From Eledone cirrhosa (taxonomy: Eukaryota): 64,000 nucleotides of DNA. The stretch covers positions 262,508,001 to 262,572,000 of the forward strand of contig OZ024742.1 in assembly GCA_964016885.1 (NCBI GenBank). The letters run 5' to 3'. The notes under the pieces are model-generated. The model made no database searches and was not told the origin of the DNA. It worked only from the letters and a program-made list of their open reading frames with translations. A program made the translations under genes and the position numbers. Every line of letters starts with the position of its first letter. Position 1 is the stretch's first letter. This document shows, one piece after another, positions 9,982 through 60,992 of the stretch.

Positions 9982-10609
9982 TATTTTCCATTTGTTCATA
10001 GATTATATTCAAAACACACTTCTTTGTGTGTTTATCTCTATATATTATAAAGAGCCCAGTTTTTATACCTTGAGTTCATTAATTACAGGGTATTAACTCG
10101 AGTTTTTAACTCCGTTCTCCATTTGTATATATATATTGTTGCATAATATATGCAGACAGATGGTGCAGTGCACCTTACTGCTGCATTAGTGCCTACCTTA
10201 TAGGCACCCGTTTTACGTGTGTTGTGTTGAGGCAAATAACTATGTGTATACTCTGGTAATGTATCTTACATTGCCCATTGAGTGCGCTGAGATACAACGG
10301 GTACTGGCATTGATAAATATGCTGGGTCCGTCAACCCGTATTATATATATATAGATATAGATAGATAGATAGATATGTTTCTTTTTATTTGCCACCAGGG
10401 CATCAAAAAGTGGGACAAGTACAATGGGGGGGGGGGGGGTTACACAAAAAGGCGAGTAAAGAAAACAAATAACAAATATAAAATTAACAATAAAGTCCTC
10501 AATAGGGAGGGGGCGTTTGGGGGGTCGCACACACCCCCGAAAAAAGTGTGCAACCCTTCTCCTCAGGAGCACAGAGAGAGGGTGCTCCTCGTTCCTTCCT
10601 CTTTTCCAC

Positions 10610-13600
10610 CTACAGGCTGATGTAAAGAGAAGGCCCATTCACACGGGCCATTCTCGCCACTTTCACCCACCTTTCATAAAAACGACTGGGGTGCAGCACC
10701 TCTCTCTCCATCCTGATCCTTCTTCCGAAATGATATCGGAAGAAACGGACCAGGTGTTGGCCAGAGAGAAAGGTGCCTGACCTCAGTTCTTTCAGACGCG
10801 TCCACCATACAACCTCTTTCACCATGGCTATTACGCACAGAAACACCGCCTCTCCTTCATTTTTGAAGGGGGAGGCGGCTTGACCGTTACAATAGACTCA
10901 GTGGTCAACCGGATCGGTCCCACCCTTGACAGCAGTTGTTCGACATAGCCCCACAGATCGGCTACGCCAGAGCAGTGTACCAATGCGTGTGAAACGGTTT
11001 CCTCGTCGCACACGCATCTGGGACAGATCTTTTTGGCGGGGTCCCTACCCGGGCGCCCGTGTCTGTAGAGCTTTTCTCGAACGGATAGAGCCCCTCGGTA
11101 GCACTGCCAGGCCAGGGACTTCTGGAAGTTGTCCATAGGTCCCGGGCTGAATGTCCTACCGAACAGGCTGGCCAGTTCGTCTTCCTCCATGTCTAGGGCT
11201 TCTCCGAGGGCGTCGTCGCACCTGCTGCGTACCAGCCCTCTATAGAATTTTGCGGTGGAGTCTTCACTGATAACCGGGTCCGCCTGCCAGAGGGCGGTGA
11301 GCGCCTGGGCACACTCAGTGTGCCAGGCGCCCAGTTTTCTCGGTTTTTGCTTGACCCAGGATTGCAGCTCGGTGAGTGAGACGAGTCTGGGAAAGGTTCG
11401 TCTCACAAACGAGGCCCCCACCGGTTGACCGGTGAGGAATACGTGAAGGTGCCGAAGCCTTAATGCGTGTTTACGCATCATTAGCCACGACATCCCCAGC
11501 CCTCCTTTCGAAGGGTGTTGACAGCAGATGGATCTCCTCACCAAAGGAGCCCGCTTCTTCCAAAGGAATTGGAAGAGTGCGCGCTCCATCTTGGCGAGGG
11601 TTTCCCTTGGGCAAGGCACGACGGTCAGGAGGTAGTAGATGACGGACGCTATATAGGTGTTCGCCACCTCCGCCCGACCTTTCAGGGATAGTTTGCAACT
11701 GGCCCACTTCTGGGTCAGTGCAAACACCCTGTTCGTAACCTCAGCCCAGTTCTTCTCCACCTGGAGGTCTGGTCCGAACCAGACCCCGAGCAACTTCACC
11801 GGGCCCTCCGTCCAGTGTCCGACGACGCCATCGGAGGGCATCGGTTTTCCCCTCCACGTGCCGAGTTGCAAACCGATCGACTTGTCCCGGTTCAGCTTAG
11901 CCCCTGTGAACCTTTCGTACTCCTTCAGTAAGGTGCCGATCGCCCCGATTTCGGAGGCCGTCGACACCATTACTGTCACGTCATCGGCGTAGGCCGACAC
12001 CGCTTTCCGCAATCCCGGTTCCAAAGGGATGCCCTGCAACAACTCCAACTACCGCATAGTGGCTCGAGAGTCAATACATACAGAAAGGAAGAGAGAGGGC
12101 ACCCTTGTCGGATGGACTGCGCGATTTCGAACGGCTCCGAGAGGTAGCCGTTCACCTTGACTCTAGAACAGATGCGGCTGCTGTGCATAGCAGTGATCCA
12201 GCCCCTGAAAACGGGTCCGAAGCCTGCCGCCGCTAGCACCGCATCCAGGTAACCATGGTCGACCCTATCGAACGCCTTAGATTGATCCAAGTTTATCAGA
12301 GCCCCACCTAAGCCGGGTTCGTTCCCAACCCTCTCTATGATGTATCGCATGAGGTGGAGGTTGTCATGGATGGACCTGGACGGGATAGCACATGTCTGCG
12401 CATCTCCCACCAGGTTTCCCACGACAAGCGCCAACCTCTTTGCTAGCACCTTGGCCAAAATCTGTAACTCTGTATTTAGCAGAGTTATGGGCCTGAAGTT
12501 ACTTATATAGTCCCCCTTGTTCTCGTCCTTCCTCACTAGCGTGACTACGCCCTTGGTCACAGCACAGGGAATTCTCCCGTTCTGTTGCCAGTTGCAGTAG
12601 ACCGCCTCGAGGAGATCGGGGAACAAGTCCGGCATAGCTAGATATAGTTCGTATGGAAGACTATCGAGACCCGGGGATTTGCGTTTGCCGCATTGGCTCA
12701 GCACGTCCTCTATCTCAGCGGCTGAAATCGGCTCCTCGCAGGACTTCGCCTCCCTGTCCGAGAGACGCGGCAGGCCGTCGAGGTATGGACCGAAGTCCAC
12801 ATCCCCAACCGGCTCTCCGCCCCTTCCGAACAATCGGGCAAAGTGCCTTTGAAAGGCCTCACACATCTGCTTAGGTTCAAGAATCGCCCGTCCATCCTGG
12901 TCTCGCAAAGACCGGATGGTGGATCTAGTTCCACTCCTGGCTTCTGTCACGCGGGCCCAGCTAACAGCTTTGGCTCCCTCGTTCTCTAGCGCACGTATTT
13001 TACTTCGGACAACGCAGCCTTCGTGCTTCGCGTCGAAAAACTGGCTCAAAGCCGTTCTCGACGCTAGCACTCTGGCCACGTCGCCGCTTCTAATTGCCTC
13101 TTCTACTCTATCTATCAGCTCCCTTTCTTTCCTATTCCTATCCGCAGATAGAACCTTACTAAATTCTATCGAGACTAATCTAATCTCTCTCTTTAGAGAT
13201 ACCCACCACCTGCTGTTGACGATCGCTCCAGTCAACCGCTCCTTAACTAACGTACTAATCCAGTCCCTGTAAGCTTTACTTGCCGGTAAGGACAAGTTCA
13301 GCTTCCAGTAACCGGGGCCCTGTCTATGCGTTCTATCAAGGTTGACCATGCAGGTCACCAACTTGTGGTCTGAATAGCCAACCATGAGCATTTCTGGACA
13401 ACTTAGAAAGTCCCTGTCCTTATTTCTAACTAAGAACCTATCTAGGTACGATCTAGATTGACCGCTGCGATTTGACCAAGACCAGGTTGGCACCGTCGGA
13501 AAATTTAGTCGAAATCTATCGGCCAGGTCAAATCGGCCGAGTAACCCCTTGAGGCTGTTGCACCCCTCTCTATCGGGACATGCCCCTGCATAGTCCCAAC

Positions 13601-14046
13601 GTGCATCCAGGATACCATTCCAGTCCCCCACTAAAAGCAGGGAACGGGACGTCCCTAGAAAAGACTCCAGACGCTGGAAAAAGTCGGGCCGCTCTGTCCC
13701 AAAAGGGGCATATGCGGCTACCAGCCTAAAGGCTCCACCTTCACCACTGCCAAGGTCCAGCACCACCAGTTGACCCCCCTGGGTCCAAGTGAACTATCTG
13801 TGTGGCGAAACCCAGATATTTTTGCAGCAGAACGACAACCCCACCCCCACCTCCAGACTGACAGAGAGATGCGTGCACCTCAAAGTCATCAAAGGTGGGG
13901 GCTAGCTGTCGCATGCTGCTGATCCGGGCCTCGCAGATAACCATCAGATTTATAGATCGTGCCCTGAGGTCATTTAGAAGCATTGCTTGCTTCCAAGATG
14001 AGCCCAGGCCACGCGCATTTAGACACCCTATTCTCAGCACAGCCAT
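10610..14046 (-). pseudogene. Copy A ORF2 (APE endonuclease-RT-zinc finger), broken into 4 pieces
   Basis: ORFs 13741-14070, 11976-13766, 10831-12048 and 10610-10846 are colinear with the intact ORF 41916-45353. Confidence 0.92.
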
Positions 14047-14070
14047 GTTGGTGGTAAGGAGAAAAGGCAC

Positions 14071-15847
14071 TTACCTCTCTGCGTCCCGGGGAGCGGGCCG
14101 CTCAATTTCCATGAGGGTTGGGGATGGGTTGTTGGGTGGGGTGGTGGTTTGTGGAAGTGTAGGGGCATCAGTGTATGGTGGGGTTGGGGTGTTTGTGGTT
14201 GAGTGGGTGTCCGGGTAGGGGGTGGGGAAATTTTTTAGGAGGACGCGGTTGAATGGCTTGGAGCAGGGGGGGGGGGGCACGTCTTCCGTGAAATTTATTT
14301 TCAACATTTTGTATAAGTTCATTGGGACTTTAATCATTTGTAAATGAAGTAGTCCCACAGCAGTTAGAAAGTTGGGCCCTTCAGTTTGGACCGAAGGGTT
14401 TGACGAAATTGTGTTCATTAGTTCTTTGTTGTCTGTGTTCATGTTTGTATATTGTAAAGTCTTTTTTTGCGTAGTGTGACGGGGAGGGGTGGTTTGTATA
14501 TAGTTTGTTTTCTCTTGGGGAGGGTTAATGTTAATAAGTGTGTCTGTGGTGCGCCTCCTCTTCTTTCTTTTTACTATTTGGAAGGGAACTTTTTCGTCTT
14601 GCGAGGAAAGGGGTTCGTCTTCCTTGTTGGGTGGGAGGGGTATATTTTCTGGTAGTGTTTGCGGTGTGTGTGTTTTTGTATTTGTTTTGGGTGGGGAGGG
14701 GTTGGGTGGGACAGTGTTCTGTGTTGTTTTTTCACTTGTTTGTTGTTGTTGTGGTGGTGGTGTTGTTGGTTTTTGTTGTTGTTGTTGTTGTGGTTGTTTT
14801 TGTTGTTGTTGTTGGGGTGGTGGTGGTGTTGGGGTGTTGGTAGCAATGGTTTTTTGTCGGTGTGAGCTGGGGACAGGCAGCCCTCAGGTGACCTCTATTT
14901 CCACAGCGGTAACAGGAGGGACGCCTACCCTCCACAATAATGTTGAGGTGGGTACGGTCATCCAGCATGACGCGCTCAGGGATTTGGGCGATACGTTTTG
15001 GCCTTATTTGGGTCAGAACTTCAATGCTCGTTCCACTGAACGCGTCGCCGGATGCCTTCCCTATTGATATAAGGTTGTCCTCGTCTAAGTTGAGGAAACC
15101 GGTTAGTAACCACCAGTAGTTTATGTTTGGGGTGATGGTGGTTATCCATATTCTTTGGGTTTTTTTACCCATGTAGGTGGGGAAAAAGGTGTAATGTGTG
15201 GAACGAATTGGCGACACAGAGTATTTTTTCGCCGCCAATTCGTCTTTCATCAATATGGATAAACTCCCATAGAGTTTATCCTTTTGTATGAAAATTATGT
15301 CTTTCATAGCCTCTTTCAAGACTAACTGAATTTCAGCTTGAGATGGTTGTGCTGGTTTTTTTGTTTTGTTTGCAATTGTACGGAATACAACAGTTCGTAA
15401 TTGCGTCTGTTTTTTTAGTCCTGGGGGCGAATTGATGGAAAAAGATCCATTTTCGCCAAACGATACATATTTTTTTGCTTTTTCAAGCATTTCTTTTGCA
15501 TTTGATATATCCTCAAGCACATATGTGACTGATATTTTAGCAGTATGTGCAAAAGATATTTTGTTTTCGTTGTTGGTGTTTGAATTGTTTTGTTTCTCGT
15601 AATTTGAGTTGTTTTCATTTTTGTTGTTGTTGTCTTTCTCGTTTGGTGTGTTGGTTTTGTCATTGTTAGTGTTTGAGTTGTAATAAATTGGGTTTGCACC
15701 CGTTTTTAATTGTTTGTCTGGCATATCGCCTTTTACGAAGTCTTTTACAACGTTGACACGTGAAAGCAAAACGCTTTGTACCGCTTGCTTCTTTCTCTCT
15801 TCTTCCTTAGTGAGCGTGGCGTTATCGTCCACACCTGCTACAGACAT
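14071..15847 (-). pseudogene. Copy A ORF1 (gag-like, zinc knuckle), frameshifted in a low-complexity linker
   Basis: CYRCGNRGHLRAAC knuckle in 14732-15847; C-terminal part 14071-14442 ends MEIERPAPRDAER*. Confidence 0.88.
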
Positions 15848-16085
15848 GGCGTCAATTTTTTACCATGTGAGTCAGCAAAATTTTTTTGGAGTAGTTTTTA
15901 CCCCCAAAAGGGGTAAAAATACGATGACCACCCGTCTACAGACCTAGCCGGGTGGTTAAAAGGCACGAAGACAACACAATAAAGAGACAAACACTTACTG
16001 TCAATGGGTAAAAGTTCAAAAAGGCAGGAGCCGATGTTATACGCGTCTATACTATACGAGATAGATAGATAGATAGATAGATATA

Positions 16086-19000
16086 TTTCTTTATTAGCCA
16101 CAGGGGCACAAAAAAGGGGACAAATACAAAGGGGGAAGTTTACATACAATAAAAACGCGTAAAATGTTATCACAAATGCAATTAAAAAAGTTAGTCGATT
16201 TTCCCCAATAGGGGAGACAATTTATATGGATAACACATACCCCCGAAAAAATGTGCAACCCTCATCTCCAGGAGTACGAAGAGTTTGTACTCCTTTCCTC
16301 TCCTCCTCTTTTTCCTCAACCTACAGGCTGATATAGAGAGAAGGCCCATTCACTCGGGCCATTCTCGCTACTTTCACCCACCTTTCATAAAACTTGCTGG
16401 GGTACAGCACTTCTCTCTCCATCCTGATTCTTCTTCCAAAGTGGTATTTGAAAAAAAGAATCAGTTGTTGGCCGGAGAGAAAGGTATCTGACCTCAGCCC
16501 TTTCAACCTTGTCCACGATACAACCTCATTCGCCATAGCTATCACACAAAGGAAAACCGCCTCTCCTTCGTTTTTGAAGGAGGGTGGTGGTTTGATCATG
16601 ACAATGGACTCGGTGGTCAACTGGATTGGTCCCACCCGCGACAATAGTCGTTCTACATAGCCCCACAGGTCGGTGACGCCTTGGCAGTGTATGAATGCGT
16701 GCGCGACGGTTTCTTCGTCTCGTACGCACCTCGGACAGATCTTTTTTGCAGGGTCCCTTCCCGGGCGCCCATGTCTGTAGAGCTTGTCTCGAACTGGTAG
16801 AGCTCCTCGGTAGCACTGCCAGGCCAGGGACTCTTGGAAGTTGTCCATCGGTCCCGGGCGGAAGGTCCTACCGAACAGACTGGCCAGTTCGTCTTCCTCT
16901 ACGCCCAGAGTTTCACCGAGAGCGTTGTCGCACTTGCTCCGGATAAACCCTCTATAGAATGACGAAGTGGAGTCTCCACTGATCACCGGGTCCGCCTGCC
17001 AAAGGGCTGTGAGCGCCTGAGCACAATCGATGTGCCAGTCGCCCATTTTCCTCGGTCTTTGCTTGACCCAGGACTGCAGCTCGGTCAGCGAGACGAGTCG
17101 TGGGAAGGCTCGCCTCACGAACGGGGCCCACCGGTTGTCCGGTGAGGAATACGTAGAGATACCGCAACCTGAGCGCTTATTTGCGCATCGTCAGCCACGG
17201 CATCCCCAGCCCTCCGTTGGAAGGGCGTTGGCAGCAGATGGATCTTCTCACCAAAAGAGCCCGCCTCTTCCAAAGGAATTGGAAGAGCGCGCGTTCCATT
17301 TTGGTGAGCGTTTTGGCTGGACAAGGCACGACAGTCAAGGGGTAGTAGATGGCGGACGCTATATAAGTGTTCGCCACCTCCGCTCAACCTTTCAATGATA
17401 GTTTGCACTCGGCCCACTTCTGGGTGAGTGCAAACATCTTGGCCGACACCTCGTTTCAGTTCTTCTCCACCTGGAGGTCCGGACCAAACCAGACCCCGAG
17501 CAGCTTTACTGGTCCTTCCGTCCAGCGTCCGACGACGCCATCGGAAGGCATCGGTTTGCCTCTCCACGATCCGAGTTGCAAACCGATGGACTTGTCCCGG
17601 TTCAGCTTCGCTCCTGTGAACCTTTCGTATTCCTTCAGTAAGGTGCCGACCTCCTCGATTTGCGAGGCGCTCGACACCATTACAGTCACGTCGTCGGCGT
17701 AGGCCAACGCCGCTTTCCGCAGTCCCGGTTCCAGAGGGATGCCCTGCAATAGCTCCAACTTCCGCAGTAGTGTCTCGAGAGTTAATACGTACAGAAGGGA
17801 GGAGAGGGGGAATCCCTGTCGAATGGATCGCGTGATATGGAACGGCTCCGAGAGGTAGCCGTTCACCTTAACACTTGAGCAGATGTTGCTGTTATGCATT
17901 GCAGCAATCCAGCCCCTGAACACGGGTCCGACGCCTGCCGCCTCGAGCACCGCATCCAGGTAACGATGGTCAACCCTATCGAAAGCCTTAGACTGATCCA
18001 AGTTGATCAGGGCCCCACCGAAGCCAGGTTTACACCCTACCCTCTCTATGATGTATCGCATGAGGTGGAGGTTGTCGTGTATGGACCTGGTCGGGATTGC
18101 GCATATCTGCGCTTCTCCCACCAGGTTCTCGACGACAAGCGCCAGCCTCTTTGCCAACACCTTGGCCAAAATCTGTAACTCTGTGTTTAGCAGAGTTATG
18201 GGCCGGAAGTTGCCTATGTCATCCCCCTTATTCTCGTCCTTCCTGACTAACGTGACTACGCCCTTGGTTACAGAACTGGGAATTCTCCCTTTCTGCTGCC
18301 AGTTGCAGTAGACCGCTTCCAGGAGACCGGAGAACAAGTCCGGCATTGCTACGGAAAATTCGTAGTGTAGACCGTCGAGACCTGGAGATTTGCGTTTGCC
18401 GCATTGGCTCAACGCGTCCCCTATCTCAGCGGCTGAAATCGGCTTTTCGCAGAAATTTGCCTCGCTGTCCGAGAGTCGCGGTAGGCCGTCGAGGTATGGA
18501 CCGAAATCCATAGCCCCTCCCGGCGCGCCGCCCTGCCCGAACAGTTGAGCAAAGTGCCGCTGAAAGGCCGCATACATCTGCTTCGGCTCACGTATCACGC
18601 GTCCGTGTTGGTCCTTCAAAGACCGAATCGTGGACTTGTTGCCACTTTTCGCCTCCGTCACTCGGGCCCAGCTCACAGCTTTGGCTCTCTCGTTTCCCAG
18701 TGCACGTATTTTGCTTCTGACAACGCAGCTTTCATGCTTTGCGTCGAAGAACTGGTCCAAGGCCGTTCTCGTTGCTAGCACGCTGGCTGCGTTCCCACTT
18801 ATAATTGCCTCTTCTACTTTATCTACCAGTTCTTTCTCGGTTCTATTTCTATCTAACGCTAATTCTTTACTAAAAGCTAACGAGTCTAATCTAACTGCCC
18901 TCTTGAGAGAGTACCACCATCTGTTGTTGACAATGGCCCCTGTCAAGTGCTGTTTAACTAAAGTGCTAATCCGTCTACTGTAGGCTTTGCATGTCGGTAA

Positions 19001-20620
19001 CGACAAGTTCAGCTTCCAGTAGCCGGGCCCTTGTTTATGGGTTCTATCAAGGTTGACCATGCAGGTCACTAGTTTGTGATCTGAATAGGCAACAATGAAC
19101 ATTTGTGGACAGCTTAACATGTCCCTATCCTTATTTCTAACTAGAACCCTATCTCGGTACGATCTAGATGTTCTGCTAAGATTAGTCCACGTCCACAGTG
19201 GCACAGTCGGAAAATCTAGTCGATATCTACCGGCCAGGTCAAATCGGCCGATTAACTGTTTGAGGATATATGACCCCCCTTTATCGGGACATGCTCCCAC
19301 ATAGTCCCAACGTGCATCTAGGATTCCATTCCAGTCCCCCACTAAAAGTAAGCAGCAGGACGTTCCCAGAAAAGTCTCTAGACGTTTGAAGAAGTCTGGC
19401 CGCGGTGTCCCGGATGGGGCATATGCGGCCACCAGCCTGAAGGCTCCACCTTCACTACCGTCAACGTCTAAGACCACCAGTCGACCCTCCGGGTCCAGAT
19501 ATACCGTTTGTGTTACGAGGCCCAGGTGTTTCCGCATCAAAACGGAAACCCCGCCCCCACCCCCGGCTGACAGAGAGATGCGTAGATCTCAAAGTCATCG
19601 AAGATGGGGGCCAGCTGTCGCTCGCTGTGGATCCTGGACTCGCAAATGGCTACTACATCCATACTGTGCAACCTGAGGTCGTTTAAGAGTTTGCCCTGTT
19701 TCCAGGGCATCCCCAGGCCGCGTACATTCACACACCCAACTCTTATATTGGCCATGTTGGTTCTGAAAAGTTAAAAGAGGAGAAGAAAACACTCACCTCT
19801 TCGTCTCCCGGGGATCAGACCGCATGGTTTCCATGGGGGTGTTGGAGAAGAGTTGTCTGGGTGGGTGGTGGTTTCCGGCGGGGTGGGGACGGAGATATTT
19901 GGTGGGGTGGGTGTGTCTGGGGTAGGTGTGTCTGGGTGGGTGTGTCTGGGGTGAGGGTGGGGAAACTTTTTAAAAGGACGCGGTTAATGGGTTTAACACA
20001 AGGATTACCCACGTCCTTAGGAAAGTTTTCCTTTAAAGACTTATAGGTGTCCGTAGGGACCCTAATCATCTTTAAATTAGGTTTGTCTACACAGTTCGAA
20101 AAAGTTTTCCCTTCGGTTTTCACCGATGGGTCGTTGGAGATGACCTCCATTAAAGTTTTGTTTTTACTGTTTATGTATGTGTAATGTTCTTGTTGTGTTG
20201 CGGTGGTTTTTGTCTGTTGTTCCTGTGGGAGCTTTCTTTTTGTTGTAGGTGTTTGTGTTTGGAGTGGTTTTGTTTTCGGGACGGGGGGGGGGGTTGTAAT
20301 GTTTGTGTTGTTTGTGTTGGTGGTTGTATGTTTGTAGTGATGTTTGTTGTTTTTTTGTTCTTATGGTGTCTTTTCTTCTTTCTTTTCGAACGGAGAGGCT
20401 CTCCCTCATCTTCACTTGGTGATGATGTGGGGGCCTCGTCAGTTGTGGTCTCTGTGTTATTTTGAAAGGGTATGTTTTGGGGAGCTGTTGTGTTTGTGGG
20501 TGTTTTTGCAGTGGTTTTAGGTGGAGTGGGGTTGGGTGGGACTGTGCTTGCAGGTTGGTTTGTTGTTCTTGTTTTGGTTGTGTTTGCGTGTTGTTGTTAT
20601 TGTTGTTGTGGTGGTGGTGG
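16086..20620 (-). mobile_element. Tx1-clade LINE copy B, 5'-truncated within ORF1, ORF2 disrupted
   Basis: ORFs 19537-19755, 17456-19540 and 16321-17118 closely match copy C; 3' end AATAAAGAAA+(TATC)n; head-to-tail with copy A. Confidence 0.93.
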
Positions 20621-21067: not shown

Positions 21068-21100
21068 AATAATGGAGCTGCGGCGCTGCAAATGGGTTAC

Positions 21101-31790: not shown

Positions 31791-31794
31791 TGAA

Positions 31795-41149: not shown

Positions 41150-41346
41150 ATCGTAATTTCCTGGGTACACTTTTGATCATTTTTTCGGGGGTATGTGTTA
41201 CCCATAGGTAATGTCTTCCCCTATTGGGGAAAAATCGATTGATTTTTAAATTGCATTTGTGATAGTATTTTACACGTTTTTATTGTATGTAAACTTCCCC
41301 CTTTGTATTTCCCCCTCTTTTGTACCCCTGTGGCAAATAAAGAAAC
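41150..41346 (+). mobile_element. Tx1 3'UTR-only fragment (copy E) followed by (TATC)n
   Basis: Similar to the reverse complement of 41679-41860. Confidence 0.85.
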
Positions 41347-41347
41347 A

Positions 41348-41389
<42 letters not shown>

Positions 41390-41646: not shown

Positions 41647-41915
41647 TAGACAGATAGATAGATAGATAGATAGATATATTTCTTTATTAGCCACAGGGGC
41701 ACAAAAGAAGGGGACAAATACAAAGGGGGAAGTTTACATACAATAAAAACGTGTAAAATGTTATCACAGATGGAATTTAAAAGTTAGTCGATTTTCCCCA
41801 ATAGAGGGAGACAGTTTATATGGGTAACACATACCCCCGAAAAAAATGTGCAACCCTCATCTCCAGGAGTACGAAGAGCTTGTACTCCTTTCCTCTCCTC
41901 CTCCTTTTCCTCAAT

Positions 41916-44900
41916 CTACAGGCTGATATAGAGAGAAGGCCCATTCACTCGGGCCATTCTCGCCACTTTCACCCACCTTTCATAAAACTTGCTGGGGTAC
42001 AGCACCTCTCTCTCCATCCTGATTCTTCTTCCAAAGTGGTATTTGAAAAAAAGAATCAGTTGTTGGCCGGAGAGAAAGGTGTCTGACCTCAGCCCTTTCA
42101 ACCTTGTCCACCATACAACCTCTTTCGCCATAGCTATCACACAAAGGAAAACCGCCTCTCCTTCGTTTTTGAAGGAGGGTGGCGGTTTGATCATGACAAT
42201 GGACTCGGTGGTCAACTGGATTGGTCCCACCCGCGACAATAGTCGTTCTACATAGCCCCACAGGTCAGTGACGCCCGGGCAGTGTATGAATGCGTGCGCG
42301 ACGGTTTCTTCGTCTCGCACGCACCTCGGACAGATCTTTTTTGCAGGGTCCCTTCCCGGGCGCCCATGTCTGTAGAGCTTGTCTCGAACTGGTAGAGCTC
42401 CTCGGTAGCACTGCCAGGCCAGGGACTTTTGGAAGTTGTCCATCGGTCCCGGGCGGAAGGTCCTACCGAATAGACTGGCCAGTTCATCTTCCTCCACGCC
42501 TAGAGTTTCACCGAGCGCGTCGTCGCACTTGCTGCGGACCAACCCTCTATAGAATGACGAAGTGGAGTCTCCACTGATCGCCGGGTCCGCCTGCCAGAGG
42601 GCTGTGAGCGCCTGAGCACATTCGATGTGCCAGTCGCCCATTTTCCTCGGTCTCTGCTTGACCCAGGACTGCAGCTCGGTCAGTGAGACGAGTCGTGGGA
42701 AGGCTCGCCTCACGAACGGGGCCCACACCGGTTGTCCGGTGAGGAATACGTAGAGATGCCGCAGCCTGAGCGCGTGTTTGCGCATCGTCAACCACGGCAT
42801 CCCCAGCCCTCCGTTAGAAGGGTGTTGGCAGCAGATGGATCTTCTTACCAAAGGAGCCCGCCTCTTCCAAAGGAATCGGAAGAGGGCGCGCTCCATTTTG
42901 GCGAGCGTTTTGGCTGGACAAGGCACGACGGTCAAGCGGTAGTAGATGGCGGACGCTATAAAAGTGTTCGCCACCTCCGCTCGACCTTTCAAGGATAGTT
43001 TGCACTCGGCCCACTTCTGGGTGAGTGCAAACACCTTGGCCGTCACTTCGTTCCAGTTCTTCTCCACCTGGAGGTCCGGACCAAACCAGACTCCGAGCAG
43101 CTTTACCGGTCCTTCCGTCCAGCGTCCGACGACGCCATCGGAAGGCATCGGTCTGCCTCTCCACGATCCGAGTTGCAAACCGATGGACTTGTCCCGGTTC
43201 AGCTTCGCTCCTGTGAGACTTTCGTATTCCTTTATTAAGGTGCCGACTTTCTCGATTTGCGAGGCGCTCGACACCATTACTGTCACGTCGTCGGCGTAGG
43301 CCGACGCCGCTTTCCGCAGTCCCGGTTCCAGAGGGATGCCCTGCAATAGCTCCAGCTTCCGCAGTAGTGGCTCGAGAGTCAGTACGTACAGAAGGGAGGA
43401 GAGAGGGCATCCCTGTCGAATGGATCGCGTAATATGGAACGGCTCCGAGAGGTAACCGTTCACCTTGACCCTTGAGCAGATGTTGCTGTTGTGCATTGCA
43501 GCAATCCAGCCCCTGAACACGGGTCCGAAGCCTGCCGCCTCGAGCACCGCATCCAGGTAACGATGGTCAACCCTATCGAAAGCCTTAGACTGATCCAAGT
43601 TGATCAGGGCCCCACCGAAGCCGGGTTTACACCCTACCCTCTCTATGATGTATCGCATGAGGTGGAGGTTGTCGTGTATGGACCTGGTCGGGATCGCGCA
43701 TGTCTGCGCTTCTCCCACCAGGTTCTCGACGACAAGCGCCAGCCTCTTTGCCAACACCTTGGCCAAAATCTGTAACTCTGTGTTTAGCAGAGTTATGGGC
43801 CGGAAGTTGCCTATGTCATCCCCCTTATTCTCGTCCTTCCTGATTAGTGTGACCACGCCCCCGGTTACAGAACTGGGAATTCTCCCGTTCTGTTGCCAGT
43901 TGCAGTAGACCGCTTCCAGGAGACCGGAGAATAAGTCCGGCATTGCTACGTAAAATTCGTAGGGTAGACCGTCGAGACCTGGAGATTTGCGTTTGCCGCA
44001 TTGGCTCAGCGCGTCCCCTATCTCAGTGGCTGAAATCGGCTTTTCGCAGAACTTCGCCTCGCTGTCCGAGAGTCGCGGTAGGCCGTCGAGGTATGGACCG
44101 AAATCCATAGCCTCTCCCGGCGCGCCGCTCCCCCCGAACAGCCGAGCAAAGTGCCGCTGAAAAGCCGCACACATCTGCTTCGGCTCACGTATCACGCGTC
44201 CGTTTTGGTCCTTCAAAGACCGAATCGTGGACTTGTTGCCACTTTTTGCCTCCGTCACTCGGGCCCAGCTAACAGCTTTGGCTCCCTCGTTTCCCAGAGC
44301 ACGTATTTTGCTTCTGACAACGCAGCCCTCGTGCTTTGCGTCGAAGAACTGGTCCAAGGCCGTTCTCGTTGCTAGCACGCTGGCTACGTTGCCACTTCTA
44401 ATTGCCTCTTCTACTTTATCTACCAGTTCCTTCTCGGTTCTATTTCTATCTAACGCTAATTCTTTACTAAAAACTATCAAGTCTAATCTAACTGCCCTCT
44501 TGAGAGAGTACCACCATCTGTTGTTGACAATGGCCCCTGTCAAGTGCTGTTTAACTAAAGTGCTAATCCGTCTACTGTAGGCTTTGCTTGTCGGTAACGA
44601 CAAGTTCAGCTTCCAGTAGCCGGGTCCTTGTCTATGGGTTCTATCAAGGTTGGCCATGCAGGTCACTAGTTTGTGATCTGAATAGGCAACCATGAACATT
44701 TGTGGACAGCTTAACATGTCCCTATCCTTATTTATAACTAGAACCCTATCTAGGTACGATCTAGATGTTCCGCTACGATTACTCCACGTCCACAGTGGCG
44801 CAGTCGGGAAATCTAGTCGATATCTATCGGCCAGGTCAAATCGGTCGATTAACTGTTTGAGGCTGTTACACCCCCCTTTATCGGGACATGCTCCCACATA

Positions 44901-45353
44901 GTCCCAACGTGCATCTAGGATTCCATTCCAGTCCCCCACTAAAAGCAAGGAGCGGGACGTTCCCAGAAAAGTCTCTAGACGTTTGAAGAAGTCTGGCCGC
45001 GGTGTCCCGGATGGGGCATATGCGGCCACCAGCCTGAACGCTCCACCTTCACTACCGTCAACGTCTAGGACCACCAGTCGACCCTCCGGGTCCAGATGTA
45101 CCGTCTGTGTTACGAGGTCCAGGTGTTTCCGCAGCAAAACCGCAACCCCACGCCCACCTCCTGGCTGACAGAGAGATGCGTAGATCTCAAAGTCGTCGAA
45201 GATGGGGGTCAGTTGTCGCTCGCTGTGGATCCTGGACTCGCAAATGGCTACTACATCCATACTGTGCGACCTGAGGTCGTTTAAGTGTTTTCCCTGTTTC
45301 CAGGGCATCCCCAGGCCGCGTACATTCACACATCCAACTCTTATATTGGCCAT
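41916..45353 (-). CDS. LINE ORF2p, 1145 aa: APE endonuclease + reverse transcriptase + C-terminal zinc finger
   Basis: NVRGL, ICES, GDWN, YLDR, SDH; KSPGLDG, FRPITLLN, DQSKAFDRV, QGCPLS, YADD; CPRC..ETVAHAFIHC. Confidence 0.95.
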   Translation of the reverse strand: MANIRVGCVNVRGLGMPWKQGKHLNDLRSHSMDVVAICESRIHSERQLTPIFDDFEIYASLCQPGGGRGVAVLLRKHLDLVTQTVHLDPEGRLVVLDVDGSEGGAFRLVAAYAPSGTPRPDFFKRLETFLGTSRSLLLVGDWNGILDARWDYVGACPDKGGCNSLKQLIDRFDLADRYRLDFPTAPLWTWSNRSGTSRSYLDRVLVINKDRDMLSCPQMFMVAYSDHKLVTCMANLDRTHRQGPGYWKLNLSLPTSKAYSRRISTLVKQHLTGAIVNNRWWYSLKRAVRLDLIVFSKELALDRNRTEKELVDKVEEAIRSGNVASVLATRTALDQFFDAKHEGCVVRSKIRALGNEGAKAVSWARVTEAKSGNKSTIRSLKDQNGRVIREPKQMCAAFQRHFARLFGGSGAPGEAMDFGPYLDGLPRLSDSEAKFCEKPISATEIGDALSQCGKRKSPGLDGLPYEFYVAMPDLFSGLLEAVYCNWQQNGRIPSSVTGGVVTLIRKDENKGDDIGNFRPITLLNTELQILAKVLAKRLALVVENLVGEAQTCAIPTRSIHDNLHLMRYIIERVGCKPGFGGALINLDQSKAFDRVDHRYLDAVLEAAGFGPVFRGWIAAMHNSNICSRVKVNGYLSEPFHITRSIRQGCPLSSLLYVLTLEPLLRKLELLQGIPLEPGLRKAASAYADDVTVMVSSASQIEKVGTLIKEYESLTGAKLNRDKSIGLQLGSWRGRPMPSDGVVGRWTEGPVKLLGVWFGPDLQVEKNWNEVTAKVFALTQKWAECKLSLKGRAEVANTFIASAIYYRLTVVPCPAKTLAKMERALFRFLWKRRAPLVRRSICCQHPSNGGLGMPWLTMRKHALRLRHLYVFLTGQPVWAPFVRRAFPRLVSLTELQSWVKQRPRKMGDWHIECAQALTALWQADPAISGDSTSSFYRGLVRSKCDDALGETLGVEEDELASLFGRTFRPGPMDNFQKSLAWQCYRGALPVRDKLYRHGRPGRDPAKKICPRCVRDEETVAHAFIHCPGVTDLWGYVERLLSRVGPIQLTTESIVMIKPPPSFKNEGEAVFLCVIAMAKEVVWWTRLKGLRSDTFLSGQQLILFFKYHFGRRIRMEREVLYPSKFYERWVKVARMARVNGPSLYISL

Positions 45354-45393
45354 GTTGGTGCTGAAAAGTTAAAAGAAGAGGAAAAGAAATCAT

Positions 45394-47166
45394 TCACCTC
45401 TTCGTCTCCTGGGGACCAGGCTGCACAATTTCCATGGGGGGTTGGAGGAGTTGTTTGGTGTGGTGGTGGTCTCTGGCGGGGTGGGGACGGAGATGTTTGG
45501 TGGGAGGGGGTGTCAGGTGGGGTGGGGGTGGGGAAACATTTCAAAAGGACGCGGTTATAGGGTTTGATGCAGGGGTTACCTACGTCGTTAGGAAATTTTT
45601 CTTTTAACTGTTTATGTGTGTCCATGGAGGTCCTAATCATTTTAAGATTAGGATTCTCCGAAGAGTGTGTAAAAGTTTTCCCTTCGGTCTCCACCGAAGG
45701 GTTTTTATATATGGTGTCTGTTAAAGTTTTATTGTTAGTATTTATGTAGGTGTAACATTTTTGTTGTGTTGTGTTGCTTTTTGTCTGTGGTTCTTGTGTG
45801 TGTTTACGTTTTGTAGTAGGTGTTTTGTTTTCAGGAGGGGGTGTTTTTGTTTGTGCTGTTTGCGTCGCTTGTGTTGGTGTTTGTGTGTTTGTTGCATTTT
45901 TGTTTGTGTTACGTCTTTTCTTTTTTCTTTTTACTGGTCGGAAAGGCTCTCCCTCATCTTCACTGGGTGACGATGATTAGGCCTCATCCGTGTTGTTGGG
46001 GTGGGAAACATTTTGAGGAGCTGTTATGTGTGTGGGTGTTTCTGGAGTTGTTTTAGGTGGGGAGGGGTTGGACTGTGTTTGTTTTGTTGTCACTATTTTT
46101 TTATGTTGTTGTTGTTGTTGTTGTTGTGCTGGTGTTGCAGTGTTGGCACTAATGCCTATTTTTGGCTAGTTAGCCGAGGACAGGAAGCTCTCAGATGACC
46201 CCTGCTTAGGCAGTAGTAACATGAGGGCCGCCTACCCTCGACCGAAATGTTTATCTATATAAGCCCATCCAGCAGCACACGTTCCGGGATCCTAGCTATT
46301 CGTTCTGGTGTCATTTGGACCAGAATTTCCAGGCTAGTTCCGCTGAACAGGTCGCCGGAGGACTTACCTACCGATATTATTGAGTCTTTTTCGAGGTTTA
46401 AAAATCCACATAGTACCCACCAAATATCAATATTTGGTGTGATACTTTGGATTTTTATTTTCTGTGTTCTTTCCCCATGTAAGTGGGGAAAGAGGTGAAC
46501 AACGGTGACACAATTGGCGACACAAGAATATTTCTGTGCCGTCAGTTGGTCTTTCATCAGAATGGATAAACTCCCGTAGAGTCTACCCTTCTGAATGAAA
46601 GCAATGTCTTTTAAGGCATCTTCTAAAACCAACTCAATTTCGCCTTGTGAAAGTTGAGTCGGTTTTCGGGTTTTGTTTGAGACTGTCCTGAAAACTATAG
46701 TTTTCAAAGCAGCTTCTCTTCGCAAATCTGGGGGAGAGTTTATGGAGAATGATCCGTTCTCACCAAAAGTTATGTATTGTCTGGCGTTATTCAAAAGCTC
46801 ATTTGCATTTGAAATATCTACCGGGGTGTAGCTTACCGTTTTCTTTACGGTTTGCGCAAACGACATTTTGTCGTTTACTTCCTTTTTGCAGTTATTGGTC
46901 TTGTTGTTGATGTTGTTTTCGTTCATAGTATTGTTGTTGTTGTTGTCGCTGGTGTCACTGGTTGTGTTGTTTTTGTTCATTGTTTCACACTTTTGGTTTT
47001 GGTTTGTTGCCATGGCAACGTCAAGTTGTTGATCAGTAGGTGGAGAAAATCCTTCCTCTTACTGACCTTTGTCTTTGACATCTGCTACTATGACAGTGGT
47101 AGGGGGAAGCTGTAAGCATATCTTCCCCTTTCCTCCTTCGAATGTTGGTGAAGAAGCTTCAGCCAT
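45394..47166 (-). pseudogene. Copy C ORF1, frameshifted
   Basis: ORF 46255-47013 is homologous to copy A ORF1; knuckle CYYCLSRGHLRASC near 46180-46222; ends MEIVQPGPQETKR*; start position uncertain. Confidence 0.8.
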
Positions 47167-47402
47167 TTTTTTTTTAAATGTTAGTTTTTCAAAAAACAAT
47201 TTATGAACTATTTCGCCTAAAGGCGTAGAATATTTTGAGAGACTGACCAGATCAAAATTTGACCTGGCAATCCCTCTACAAATTGGTATAAAAATGAAGG
47301 TTCACAGTTAAGAGTTTCTATAGAAATTTAGGCAGAACTTACCCAGCAAGTTTCATGCGTGTGTCCATCCCAGAAATAGATAGATAGGTAGATAGATAGA
47401 CG

Positions 47403-47468
<66 letters not shown>

Positions 47469-47469
<1 letters not shown>

Positions 47470-48892
47470 TTCTTTATTTGACACAAGGGAGGTTTTACAT
47501 AAAAATCGGCGGGGGTTTTACATAAAAATCGTATAAACTTTAACATTAATAAATAACAATAAACTATATATTAAAAAATTAACAATCGAAATCCCCAATA
47601 AGGGGGGACGTTACTGAATGGTTGTTTTACACCCCGTAGATAGAACAATCCTCAACATCAGAAGCACGTTTTGTAAGTGTTCCCGTCTTCCCTCTGTTTG
47701 TCTTCCTCAACCTACAGGTTTATATACAGAGAAGGCCATTCACTTGGGCCATTTTCGCCATATTCACCCACCTTTCAGTGAATTTATTGGGGTGTAGCAC
47801 CTCTCATTCCACTCTCACCGTCCTTCTGAAGTGATACTTAAAGAAAGGGATACGTTGTTGTCCGGAGAGGAAGGTGTTTTCCCTCAGTCCTTTCAACCTC
47901 TTCCACCATATCACCTTTTTCTCATAGCCACCAGACAGAGGAAAACCGCCTCTCCTTCATTCTTAAATGAAGCCGGCGGGGGGATCCTCACAATGGACTC
48001 GGCTGACAACTGGATGCATCCCACATGTGGCAGTAGCTGTTTGACATAATTCCACAGGCAAGTCAATCATGGGCATTGAACAATTGTGTGAAGAACAGTT
48101 TCAATGTCCTGCTCGCATCTTGGACAGGTCCTTTTGGCAGAGACCTCTGGAAGTTATACATAGGCCCTGGATGGTAAGGCCTCCTGAACAGACCGGTTCG
48201 TCCTCTTAGATGCCTAGAGTCTCCCCGAGAACGTCGTTGCACTTATCCTCTACTAATCCCCTATAGAATGTCGACGTGGAGTCTCCGCGGATTGCCGTTT
48301 CCGCTTGGTAGAGAGCTGTGAGCGCCTGAACGCACTCTCAGGTGCCCATTTTCGGGGATTCGCTTGACCCAGGACCGCAGCTCTGTTAGCGAGACGAGTT
48401 GTGGAAAAGCTCATCTCACAAACGACAACCACACCGGTTCGCCGGTCAGGAATACCTGGAGATAGCGTAGCCTCAGCGCATGTTTGCGCATCATCGGCCA
48501 CGGCATGCCCAGCCATCCGCTAGAAGGGTATTGGCAGCAGATGGATCTCCTCACCAATGGAGCTTGTTTCTTCCAAAGGAACTTGAACAGTAGAAGTTCC
48601 ATTTTGGTGAGGTGATCGGGGACAAAGCACGACTGTCAAGCGGTAGTAGATAACGGACGCTATGTAAGTGTTCGCTACCTCCGCTCGACCTTCTAAGGAG
48701 AGTCTGCACTCAGCCCACTTCTGAGTGAGTGCAAACACCTTCGCTGAGACCTTGTTTCAGTTTTTGTCCACCTGGAGGTTTTGGATCAAACCAGACCCCA
48801 AGCAATTTCACCGGTCCTTCAGTCCAGCGTCCAACGACGCTGTCGGACGGCATGGGTTTGCCTCTCCATGAGCCGAGCTGCAAACCGACAGA
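47469..48892 (-). mobile_element. Tx1 copy D, 5'-truncated and decayed, head-to-tail with copy C
   Basis: ALTQKWAECRLSLEGRAEVANTYIAS, FLWKKQAPLVRRSICCQ; GATA-like flanks. Confidence 0.88.
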
Positions 48893-48949
48893 CTCGTTAG
48901 ATAGAAAGACAGACAGAGAGATAGAGAGATATATAGATAGGTATAACTA

Positions 48950-49644: not shown

Positions 49645-50774
<1,130 letters not shown>

Positions 50775-51598: not shown

Positions 51599-51670
<72 letters not shown>

Positions 51671-51682
51671 GTTGTTGTTATT

Positions 51683-52074
51683 CCTTGAATCTCAGTCATT
51701 GATGTTGGTTAACTGGAAAGTCCGTTGGATTGAATATCAAGCCACTACCTGCAGCCTCAGATATTCAGGACGTATCGGAGGGTTCTTGCTGTTCCAAGCA
51801 AGCATGCCTTTTGAAGCGTTCCAAAAAGCGTGAAGGGGCCGATTTTCTTTAACCATCCCTGGAAACTTTTGGAGATAGTCCCCAGTGCGCCTATGACAAT
51901 CGGGATCACTTTGACTTCATGGCAGTTCCAAATCCTTTTCACCTCCCACTTTAGGTCCTGGTATCGGTTAATTTTCTCCCTCTCCTTCTCTTGCACTCTC
52001 GTGTCGAACGGGCAGGCCACATCCACAATCAGGCACGATCTTTTTTTTTTGTCCACAACCACCAGGTCAGGTCT
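51683..52074 (-). mobile_element. R4/Dong-clade 3' fragment (RLE) within (TAA)n
   Basis: [28 protein letters not shown]; near-identical to the 3' end of 55609-57600. Confidence 0.9.
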
Positions 52075-52102
52075 ATTATTATTATTATTATTATTATTAT
52101 TA

Positions 52103-55100: not shown

Positions 55101-55540
55101 CACGTTTGAAAGGGCTGAAGACGAGCACTTACCTCTTCGGTGATGCCCTGATTAACTTTTTCAAATTTCATTTGAAAAGGAAAATCAGAGTAGAGAGGGA
55201 AGTGCTCTCTTCCCAACATTTTGTTGAAAGATGGGTGAGAGAAGCAAGAATGGTCCGAGTGAACGGGCCTACTCTGAGTATATATCTGTAAATTAAAGGT
55301 GGAAAACTGGGAGAGGGCACTTGCCTTGGTGGTCAGGATCACTGTGGCCTTTTACTGGGCTTTCTCCACAAATGTCCCTCCGAAGTCTCCCCCCTATTGG
55401 GGAACTTTTCATTGTTATTTTTTGTTACATCCTCTGTTTTTGTTTTTTACACGCAAAAATGCCCATTTGTACCGTCCTGTATTGTCCTGTACTGTCCTTA
55501 ATATCTACTTTATGTAAACCCTTGTGGTTAATAAAGAAAA

Positions 55541-55541
<1 letters not shown>
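52103..55541 (+). mobile_element. Tx1-clade copy F (different subfamily), 5'-truncated and decayed, within (TTA)n
   Basis: APE-RT-zf pieces (ORFs 52726-53901, 54539-55084); ends AATAAAGAAAAC+(ATT)n; preceded by (TAT)n. Confidence 0.92.
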
Positions 55542-55601
<60 letters not shown>

Positions 55602-55608
55602 GTTATTA

Positions 55609-57597: not shown

Positions 57598-57600
<3 letters not shown>
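55609..57600 (-). mobile_element. R4/Dong-clade LINE, 5'-truncated, uninterrupted 638-aa RT-CCHC-RLE frame (55685-57601)
   Basis: [47 protein letters not shown]; (TAA)n on both sides. Confidence 0.93.
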
Positions 57601-57652
<52 letters not shown>

Positions 57653-57657
57653 TATTA

Positions 57658-60600: not shown

Positions 60601-60697
60601 TAACTTTTTTCTTACAATATTTCTTCGTATATTGGCTAGTTTGTTACTGTCAATATAGCCTCTGTTTTCGGGATGTTTCTTTTTCCAGTTGATATAT
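57658..60697 (-). mobile_element. Second R4/Dong family copy with an internal deletion of the zinc-finger region
   Basis: Long RT ORF ending at 58114 (FYMDE) joined directly to the RLE tail 57802-58101. Confidence 0.9.
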
Positions 60698-60940
60698 GTC
60701 TGTTCTGTATTCGATGATTGCTGACTTGTGGAGCTATGTCGAACAGTTGCTGTCACGTGTAGGACGGATCCGGTTATCGACTGAGTCCATTATGCAGATA
60801 GCCCCGCCATCCCTTATCTTGCTTTATGTTCATATGAGTTATCACCTAGTCACAACCAGTGACCTCAAGATACACCAACGTCTGTTCAAGAAAACCACAC
60901 ACACACATACATGTTTCTTTAGGTGTTTAGGGAATGTTTA
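60698..60940. mobile_element. Short Tx1 ORF2 scrap (+) fused to a Dong 3'UTR scrap (-)
   Basis: ADLWSYVEQLLSRVGRIRLSTESIMQIAPP, then sequence matching 57668-57790. Confidence 0.75.
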
Positions 60941-60992
60941 TGGTTAGTATTGTATTTATATTTCATTTATTATTATTATTATTATTATTATT

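What the first reader, a model, noticed from the sequence alone, without database searches (positions are those of the whole stretch)
47337..47345. Both full-length Tx1 copies carry a GTAAGT donor near their 5' ends despite unrelated 5'UTRs
Seen: copy C has TGG|GTAAGT (47342-47337), ~35 nt from its 5' end. Copy A has ACA|GTAAGT (15998-15993), ~60 nt from its 5' end. Each is followed ~55-65 nt later by a pyrimidine-rich TGTAG acceptor-like site. Inference: either a 5'UTR intron, or a donor that joins the acceptor before ORF2 to give an ORF2-only mRNA. Unspliced RNA must still be the transposition template, since integrated copies keep these signals; that would be a retrovirus-like balance of spliced and unspliced RNA in a LINE.
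Basis: partly seen in the sequence, partly recalled or inferred. Interest (0 to 1): 0.7.

Follow-up and report, generated by a model that had tools for sequence, protein, structure and literature searches.

The report
Splice-donor signals in LINE retrotransposon leaders
Two related LINE jumping genes each carry a splice-donor motif just after their start, which likely marks a short, partly retained leader intron, so that unspliced RNA would be what gets copied into the genome, a balance already known from human LINE-1.

Summary
Both GTAAGT motifs are where stated (47342, 15998; 33 and 60 nt after the (TATC)n 5' junctions). This exceeds chance (joint p 1.6e-4 to 4e-3 before look-elsewhere; n=2). 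Three details fail. (1) Only copy C has a good pyrimidine-rich TGTAG; A's is weak, follows a CTAG and lies in a hairpin. (2) The 5'UTRs are weakly homologous, not unrelated. (3) The acceptor before ORF2 exists in C and in truncated copy B, but A reads TAC there, so an ORF2-only mRNA is not general. No spliced copy lies in the window. Best reading: a promoter-proximal U1 site and 55-67-nt leader intron, partly retained, working like the +97 donor of human L1 (SpORF2, SpIRE). The 'retrovirus-like balance in a LINE' is therefore already known. This leaves a small chance that ORF1 and ORF2 are mutually exclusive exons. No RNA data or family survey was possible. Host is probably an octopod (closest named RT: Argonauta, 67%).

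The parts
41677..47375 (-). Copy C: 5'-complete APE-RT LINE (Tx1-like). ORF2 intact, ORF1 disabled, (TATC)n at both junctions
47343..47375 (-). C putative exon 1 (33 nt). Holds two ATGs (47368, 47356) of a 9-codon uORF that stops at the TAA inside the donor
47337..47342 (-). C 5'UTR donor D1, TGG|GTAAGT
   Evidence: rank 4 of 278 GTs by U1 pairing
47276..47342 (-). C candidate 67-nt leader intron (TTAAC at 47311, acceptor TGTAG ending 47276)
47235..47276 (-). C long hairpin directly after the acceptor (-25.6 kcal/mol)
45394..47166 (-). C ORF1 region (zinc-knuckle ORF1), 3-4 premature stops and frameshifts
45392..45397 (-). C inter-ORF donor-like site D2, GAG|GTGAAT, overlapping the likely ORF1 stop
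45361..45390 (-). C pre-ORF2 acceptor-like site A2 (pyrimidine tract, TTAAC, CAG), 7 nt before the ORF2 ATG; rank 1 of 163
41916..45353 (-). C ORF2, 1145 aa, EN-RT-zf. Its stop TAG at 41918-41916 forms acceptor-like site A3
10376..16058 (-). Copy A: 5'-complete sister subfamily (81% to B/C in ORF2), frameshifted
15999..16058 (-). A putative exon 1 (60 nt), no ATG
15993..15998 (-). A 5'UTR donor D1, ACA|GTAAGT
15936..15998 (-). A candidate leader intron: 55 nt to CTAG (15944) or 63 nt to TGTAG (15936); TTAAC at 15959; AGs inside a hairpin
14069..14074 (-). A inter-ORF donor D2, GAG|GTAAGT, containing the ORF1 stop TAA; best U1 pairing of 294 sense GTs
14047..14068 (-). A inter-ORF spacer: pyrimidine-rich but with no AG (CTTAC where B and C read TTCAG); ORF1 and ORF2 in the same frame
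10610..14046 (-). A ORF2 (3 frameshifts, 1 stop). Its stop TAG forms acceptor-like site A3, rank 2 of 139
16084..20620 (-). Copy B: 5'-truncated inside ORF1, 91% to C; keeps D2 and A2
19763..19796 (-). B inter-ORF donor D2 GAG|GTGAGT (rank 1 of 231) and acceptor A2 (rank 1 of 121), only 34 nt apart
47470..48897 (-). Copy D: 3' fragment whose (TATC)n tail abuts the 5' end of C; its 76-nt internal deletion is not GT-AG bounded

Best explanation
Each 5'-complete copy carries a GTAAGT donor 33-60 nt after its start and an acceptor 55-67 nt further on, which likely form a short, only partly removed leader intron inside the LINE's internal promoter. SHOWN: the motifs, their spacing, and their retention in integrated copies. 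INFERRED: U1 snRNP binds this promoter-proximal donor, which would raise Pol II output and shield the A-rich ORF1 region from premature polyadenylation. Some transcripts would lose the intron and serve as mRNA. In the B/C subfamily some may splice on to the acceptor before ORF2, giving an SpORF2-like RNA. Spliced RNAs that retrotranspose would lose part of the internal promoter and be dead ends, so only unspliced RNA founds new active copies and the signals persist. The main route to ORF2 protein is likely still translational coupling on the bicistronic RNA, since A has no pre-ORF2 acceptor. It works like the human L1 +97 donor.
For: Motif placement exceeds shuffles (joint 1.6e-4 to 3.8e-3; full intron signature 6.6e-5). 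Sense GTRAGT in A, B and C occurs only 5 times: 2 at D1, 2 at D2, 1 inside C ORF1, none in ORF2. In C the acceptor ranks 2 of 163 and is the first AG after TTAAC. The donors sit at non-aligned positions of weakly homologous UTRs, which suggests retention through turnover. Internal poly(A) signals exist for U1 to suppress: 3 in A (1 AATAAA, 2 ATTAAA) and 3 in C (AATAAA); ORF1 regions are 38% A. Precedent, passages read: L1 donor G98U99 is conserved, splices within the UTR and towards ORF1/ORF2, most transcripts evade splicing, and spliced copies are about 2% of full-length L1s and dead ends (PMC5860796; PMC2896524). A promoter-proximal 5' splice site enhances transcription and U1 telescripting (review PMC10228655).
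Against: Only two 5' ends, and no RNA evidence. A's donor lacks exonic consensus and is outside the top 10 of 294 by U1 pairing; A's acceptors are mediocre (ranks 10 and 37 of 139). A's ACAG before the donor itself scores as an acceptor (rank 3), so the region is simply T-rich. No spliced copy among the six family copies in the window (uninformative at an L1-like 2% rate). Splice sites are no more or less base-paired than shuffled controls (10 sites, 18-144 of 150 shuffles reach the observed value), so no structural switch was found. In L1 the donor appears to be kept because it overlaps a RUNX3 site, so conservation need not mean selection for splicing.
Confidence: 0.45

Rival explanations
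1. Coincidence or by-product. The hexamers are chance, or part of promoter-factor sites in T-rich 210-nt leaders, and are at most cryptic splice sites of no use to the element.
For: n=2 and the motif was picked after the fact; some shared hexamer is expected in 74% of shuffles. The donors are at different distances and do not align. C has an equally good donor inside ORF1 (46367) that A lacks. Unrelated LINE bodies in the window carry GTAAGT at 1-2 per 2-3.4 kb. A's acceptor is weak.
Against: Both donors are followed by a branch motif and YAG at a similar distance (only 13-14% of shuffles that have a donor show this).
Confidence: 0.3
2. Regulated ORF2-only mRNA. D1 splices to the acceptor 7 nt before the ORF2 ATG, and this is the main source of ORF2 protein.
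For: A2 is the top acceptor-like site in B (1 of 121) and C (1 of 163). In C the exon-1 ATG is in frame with ORF2 after a D1-A2 join, and in frame and stop-free to ORF1 after a D1-A1 join (1,006 of 10,000 shuffles stay open, times 1/3 for frame). C keeps ORF2 intact (0 stops, branch pN/pS 0.31) while ORF1 has 3-4 stops (p about 0.01 for 4 of 4, about 0.035 for 3 of 3). Human SpORF2 precedent.
Against: A has no AG there and no ATG in exon 1. A's ORF1 stop is in frame and 28 nt before the ORF2 ATG, an L1-like reinitiation layout. T-rich inter-ORF spacers are common in fish L1 (PMC5381506). No ORF2 homolog shows a matching leader: 2 of the 64 hits (of 125) that reach the N-terminus have extensions over 15 aa, and the closest EN fragment starts at the ORF2 Met. 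Those proteins are mostly genomic predictions, so this test is weak.
Confidence: 0.12
3. Mutually exclusive ORF exons. Leader exon, then either ORF1 (A1 to D2, spliced on to the acceptor at the ORF2 stop, removing ORF2) or ORF2 (D1 to A2), with unspliced RNA as the genome. D2 and A2 lie too close (34-37 nt) to be used together.
For: D2 is the best U1-pairing site in A (1 of 294) and B (1 of 231) and overlaps a stop conserved as AGG-TRA in A, B and C. The ORF2 stop is a pyrimidine-rich CCTGTAG in A, B, C and D (ranks 2/139, 2/121, 3/163, 3/30).
Against: These are homologous sites, so each counts as one observation. D2 is weakened in C (GTGAAT). The tract before A3 encodes a conserved hydrophobic C-terminus shared with relatives, and copy E ends in TAA with no AG. 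A lacks A2. No ORF2-less or ORF1-less copy in the window.
Confidence: 0.07
4. Micro-intron fusion. D2 splices to A2 (34 or 37 nt), joining ORF1 to ORF2 in frame.
For: The join is in frame in B and C, and A's ORFs are already in frame across one stop. Pyrimidine content is 90%, with TTAAC 8 nt before the AG.
Against: 34-37 nt is below the usual minimum for metazoan U2 introns (recalled; my search for mollusc intron sizes found no paper). A has no acceptor. No ORF1-ORF2 fusion among the 64 homologs reaching the N-terminus. A relative has a free-standing 623-aa ORF1.
Confidence: 0.04

Closest known systems
Human L1 5'UTR donor G98U99: SpORF2 mRNA (97 to 1837; PMC2896524) and SpIREs (PMC5860796); passages read
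   Same: Donor within about 100 nt of the 5' end of a bicistronic APE-RT LINE; acceptors in the 5'UTR and upstream of ORF2; integrated full-length copies keep the sites; unspliced RNA propagates.
   Different: Here the UTR is 210 nt rather than about 900 and the candidate intron 55-67 nt rather than over 500. The pre-ORF2 acceptor is 7 nt from the ATG and absent in one subfamily. A second donor overlaps the ORF1 stop. Splicing is demonstrated for L1 and only predicted here.
Tx1-clade microsatellite-targeting LINEs Kibi (TC)n, Koshi (TTC)n and crocodilian (TTCC)n families (PMC4494074; passages and section 15 read)
   Same: Two-ORF APE-RT elements inserted in simple repeats.
   Different: Target here is (TATC)n (copy E: (ATT)n). 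The passages read report no splice signals. Clade placement by RT tree was not possible.
Zebrafish LINE with functional splice sites (Tamura et al. 2007, Gene 390:221; seen only as a citation in PMC3091869 and PMC12026185) and Drosophila TART (PMC1636488, abstract)
   Same: Splice sites in non-mammalian LINE RNA.
   Different: TART introns are in antisense RNA. The zebrafish paper was not read, so element and positions are unchecked.
[quoted passage not shown]
   Same: 5'UTR of 0.14-0.23 kb, little similarity between families past the 5' end, T-rich inter-ORF spacers.
   Different: The word 'splic' has 0 occurrences in that paper's main text, which proposes IRES or reinitiation for ORF2.
Simple-retrovirus env splicing and copia/Ty1 gag-only spliced RNA (recalled, not from a call)
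   Same: One transcript used unspliced as genome and spliced as subgenomic mRNA.
   Different: No LTR or packaging signal. LINE proteins prefer their own RNA in cis, which penalises splicing. Functional analogy only.

Membership tests
Tx1 clade non-LTR retrotransposon | ORF2 with APE endonuclease, RT and C-terminal zinc-binding domain | tested here: met
   Pfam Exo_endo_phos, RVT_1, zf-RVT; best solved relative human L1 ORF2p, E 6e-52
Tx1 clade non-LTR retrotransposon | Separate ORF1 with RNA-binding and CCHC domains | tested here: met
   zf-CCHC; Atlas look-alikes at 0.90-0.92 include ZCCHC3-type RBD clusters, a lead only
Tx1 clade non-LTR retrotransposon | Target preference for a repeat | tested here: met
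   4 of 4 minus-strand copies (A-D) have TATC-like DNA at the 5' junction and a (TATC)n tail
Tx1 clade non-LTR retrotransposon | RT phylogeny groups with labelled Tx1 references rather than L1 | not testable with these tools
U2-type spliceosomal intron (leader, copy C) | GTRAGT donor, branch motif, pyrimidine tract, first YAG after the branch point | tested here: met
   (consensus motifs recalled; crude score)
U2-type spliceosomal intron (leader, copy A) | Same four features | tested here: inconclusive
   Donor and branch motif present; tract weak; first AG is CTAG; hairpin
U2-type spliceosomal intron | Removal from RNA | not testable with these tools
   No RNA or eukaryotic nucleotide collection available
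L1 SpORF2/SpIRE-type splicing | Donor near the 5' end of the UTR | tested here: met
   2 of 2 5'-complete copies
L1 SpORF2/SpIRE-type splicing | Acceptor upstream of the ORF2 AUG | tested here: inconclusive
   Present in 2 of 3 copies (B, C); absent in A
L1 SpORF2/SpIRE-type splicing | Integrated spliced copies | tested here: inconclusive
   0 of 9 modelled junctions found in 64 kb; sample far too small
Retrovirus-like subgenomic splicing as obligatory route to the downstream ORF | Acceptor before the downstream ORF in every subfamily | tested here: not met
   A lacks it (single copy, so damage is not excluded)
snRNA-, spliced-leader- or ribozyme-derived 5' head | Match to an Rfam family | tested here: not met
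   0 matches at gathering threshold in the whole window
U12-type intron | RTATCCTT donor (recalled) | tested here: not met
   Donors read GTAAGT

The most novel reading that the evidence does not exclude
This Tx1-like lineage solves the bicistron problem by splicing. A shared leader exon is joined either to ORF1 or to ORF2 as mutually exclusive exons. The ORF1 stop codon is built into a donor and the ORF2 stop codon into an acceptor, so ORF2 is excised as an intron from ORF1 mRNA. Unspliced RNA is mobilised through its conserved 3' tail. In copy C one exon-1 ATG is in frame with both ORFs.
Probability: 0.07. Interest if true: 0.75.

Novelty: new member of a known kind. Interest (0 to 1): 0.3.

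Why it matters
How LINEs make ORF2 protein from a two-ORF RNA is still an open question (PMC3894237, passages). For human L1, splicing from a 5'UTR donor is known and is seen as harmful to the element. If a donor near the 5' end proves general in invertebrate Tx1 leaders despite sequence turnover, it would point to U1 recruitment as a shared requirement of LINE internal promoters. That is a modest but useful extension. If the mutually exclusive exon model held, it would be a new expression strategy for non-LTR elements. As it stands this is a two-copy motif observation with a close published precedent. My searches (open-access PMC and bioRxiv only, listings read, Repbase Reports not covered) listed no paper on splice signals in Tx1 elements.

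Tried and rejected
Rfam scan for an snRNA, SL-RNA or ribozyme head: 0 hits. Local alignment and BLAST of the two UTRs: not significant; only global alignment showed weak homology. Search for spliced integrants: 0 of 9 junctions, and D's 76-nt deletion is not GT-AG. Hairpin masking of splice sites as a switch: small hairpins cover both donors, but pairing is no higher than in shuffles at any of 10 sites; rejected. Protein searches for a spliced leader or an ORF1-ORF2 fusion: none; weak, since hits are mostly genomic predictions and the nearest are 67-77% identical. ORF1 relatives (176 hits) carry no DNA context. Cluster look-up for names and accessions could not be made, so the unnamed relatives stay without taxon. 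The O. vulgaris repeat paper's supplement gave no hit for 'fasta' and is only 5,371 characters. Supplements of PMC4494074 were not available and may hold Tx1 junction sequences that bear on this. No paper on mollusc minimum intron size was found. The idea that the 210 nt are host DNA between two insertions was considered and judged unlikely: equal lengths, weak homology, and TATC directly at the junctions of truncated copies B and D too.

Full report
SETTING. The window is AT-rich, microsatellite-dense animal DNA holding several non-LTR retrotransposons. The closest named relative of the ORF2 reverse transcriptase is a protein of the octopod Argonauta hians (67% identity), so the host is probably an octopod (inference). 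O. vulgaris has 13 recently active L1-Tx1 and 5 Dong-R4 families (PMC13282606, passages), the two kinds seen here. Self-BLAST and translation resolve one family into copies A (16058-10376), B (20620-16084, truncated in ORF1), C (47375-41677), D (48897-47470, 3' fragment), E (52105-55541, plus strand) and F (41178-41372, 3' stub). B and C are 91% identical overall and about 95% in ORF2; A is 81% to both. A-D all have TATC-like DNA at the 5' junction and a (TATC)n tail; B's tail abuts A's 5' end and D's tail abuts C's. ORF2 of C is intact (1145 aa, EN-RT-zf). The Tx1 label fits the anatomy and target preference but could not be tested by phylogeny.

THE OBSERVATION. Both donors are exactly where stated, 33 and 60 nt from the junctions, with TGTAG 62 and 58 nt further on. 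Dinucleotide shuffles give joint probabilities of 1.6e-4 (GTAAGT in the first 70 nt of both) to 3.8e-3 (GTRAGT anywhere in both UTRs). Real window DNA gives 2.7e-4 to 1.3e-3. Both candidates also contain TTAAC, and the full signature appears in 262 and 100 of 20,000 shuffles. It is more than chance, on two data points.

CORRECTIONS. The acceptor is good in C (rank 2 of 163 YAG on a crude pyrimidine score) but poor in A (rank 37 of 139). In A a CTAG comes first and both AGs lie in a hairpin. The UTRs are not unrelated. They have the same length (211 and 209 nt), both fold better than shuffles (z -2.7 and -3.1), and their global alignment beats 996-998 of 1,000 block shuffles and nearly all GC-matched real segments (0 of 1,367 and 2 of 1,927 reach it), though local alignment is not significant. 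The donors are not aligned with each other in the best alignment, so they may have been re-created during turnover. The acceptor before ORF2 is the top-scoring site in B and C but is missing in A, which reads CTTAC. By U1 pairing C's donor ranks 4 of 278 and A's is outside the top 10 of 294 (U1 motif recalled).

The best U1-pairing site in A (1 of 294) and in B (1 of 231) is a homologous GAG|GTRAGT 28 and 41 nt before the ORF2 ATG; C has a weaker GTGAAT there, 44 nt before. It contains a stop conserved as AGG-TRA in all three. In A, whose frame is unbroken for 270 codons, this is the ORF1 stop; in B and C indels in C-rich tracts blur the frame. The ORF2 stop is a pyrimidine-rich CCTGTAG that ranks 2/139, 2/121, 3/163 and 3/30 as an acceptor in A-D. 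However, it encodes a C-terminus conserved in relatives and E ends in TAA. In C, an exon-1 ATG opens a 9-codon uORF that ends in the donor's TAA when unspliced. It is in frame with ORF1 after removal of the leader intron (open for 109 nt; 1,006 of 10,000 shuffles) and with ORF2 after the long splice. A has no such ATG, so this is unreplicated. C has 3-4 ORF1 stops and none in ORF2 (p about 0.01-0.035; ORF2 branch pN/pS 0.31), a weak hint that ORF2 can be kept without ORF1.

NEGATIVE RESULTS. No Rfam family in the window. No integrated spliced junction (0 of 9 models). No excess structure over splice sites. Of 125 ORF2 homologs, 64 reach the N-terminus; 2 have extensions over 15 aa and none is an ORF1 fusion. 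The closest EN fragment (68%) starts at the ORF2 Met.

MECHANISM. Shown: the motifs, their spacing, their retention in genomic copies, and the missing acceptor in A. Inferred: the leader is an internal Pol II promoter (standard for this LINE group). U1 binds the donor, aiding transcription and suppressing the three internal poly(A) signals found in each of A and C (U1 roles from review PMC10228655, passages). A share of transcripts loses the 55-67-nt intron, and in B/C some may splice to the pre-ORF2 acceptor. Spliced RNAs that integrate lose promoter sequence and die out, so the lineage runs through unspliced RNA. ORF2 is mainly made by coupling or reinitiation, as for L1 and SART1 (PMC5381506 and PMC3894237, passages). 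Confidence 0.45. Rivals: chance or promoter overlap 0.30; ORF2-only mRNA as main route 0.12; mutually exclusive ORF exons 0.07; micro-intron fusion 0.04.

COMPARISON WITH WHAT IS KNOWN. It works like human L1. There a conserved donor at +97 splices to 1837 to give an ORF2-only mRNA in many tissues (PMC2896524, passages) and to acceptors in the UTR and ORF1. Spliced integrants are 131 of 6,609 full-length copies and are dead ends, most transcripts evade splicing, and the donor overlaps a RUNX3 site needed by the promoter (PMC5860796, passages). Splice sites are also reported for a zebrafish LINE (citation only) and TART antisense RNA (abstract). Membership in that class cannot be claimed, because splicing itself could not be tested. 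The obligatory retrovirus-like version fails on copy A unless A is damaged. PMC9115989 (passages) has 0 occurrences of 'Tx1' or 'splic'. My paper searches (listings read) showed nothing on Tx1 splice signals, within an open-access library only.

VERDICT. A real and modestly significant motif pattern with some mis-described details, and an interpretation that has a direct published precedent. New member of a known kind; interest 0.3. The mutually exclusive exon reading (probability 0.07, interest 0.75) is cheap to test with the host assembly and RNA-seq.

Noticed in passing
window 14074, 19796, 45397 (minus): Conserved donor-like GAG|GTRART overlapping the likely ORF1 stop; the best U1-pairing site in copies A and B.
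   Followed up: partly
window 10610, 16321, 41916, 47712 (minus): The ORF2 stop TAG sits in an acceptor-like CCTGTAG in four copies; with the site above it brackets ORF2 like an intron.
   Followed up: partly
window 45394-47166 versus 41916-45353: Copy C has a disabled ORF1 (3-4 stops, frameshifts) but a fully open 1145-aa ORF2.
   Followed up: partly
window 52105-55541 (plus): Copy E, a more distant relative (about 71% nt), has (ATT)n at its 5' junction and tail instead of (TATC)n: a target switch within the lineage.
   Followed up: no
window 16059-16095 and 47376-47478: Head-to-tail stacking: each 5'-complete copy starts directly after the (TATC)n tail of a truncated sibling. An upstream copy's promoter or poly(A) signal could affect the next.
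   Followed up: no
window 51599-52077, 55542-57676, 57600-60993 (minus): A second LINE family with (AAT)n tails whose RT matches R2-type proteins best, probably Dong/R4-like; tandem copies interleaved with copy E.
   Followed up: partly
window 16195-16220 and equivalents in A, C, D, E, F: A CCCTATTG(G/A)GG motif (hairpin in B, -9.3 kcal/mol) and a CCCT(T/G)GTG..AAATAAA-like end are conserved in all six 3'UTRs despite divergence around them; candidate 3' recognition signals.
   Followed up: no
window 16038-16048 and 47354-47364 (minus): Both leaders begin with an ACGC(G/A)T-like core about 10 nt from the 5' end; A's AGACGCG fits the frog L1 leader motif (A/G)GACGC(G/A) described in PMC5381506.
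   Followed up: no
window 41178-41372 (plus): A 3' stub (copy F, about 170 nt) of the same family in opposite orientation, facing the tail of C.
   Followed up: no
window 31742-32530 (minus): An old, heavily decayed RT fragment of the same lineage (43% aa, 4 stops), without evident TATC flanks.
   Followed up: no
window 49987-50703: A 31-bp (2 x 16) tandem repeat of about 23 copies.
   Followed up: no
window 21080-21400: A long inverted repeat (about 160-bp arms) upstream of copy B, seen by eye; MITE-like or fold-back.
   Followed up: no
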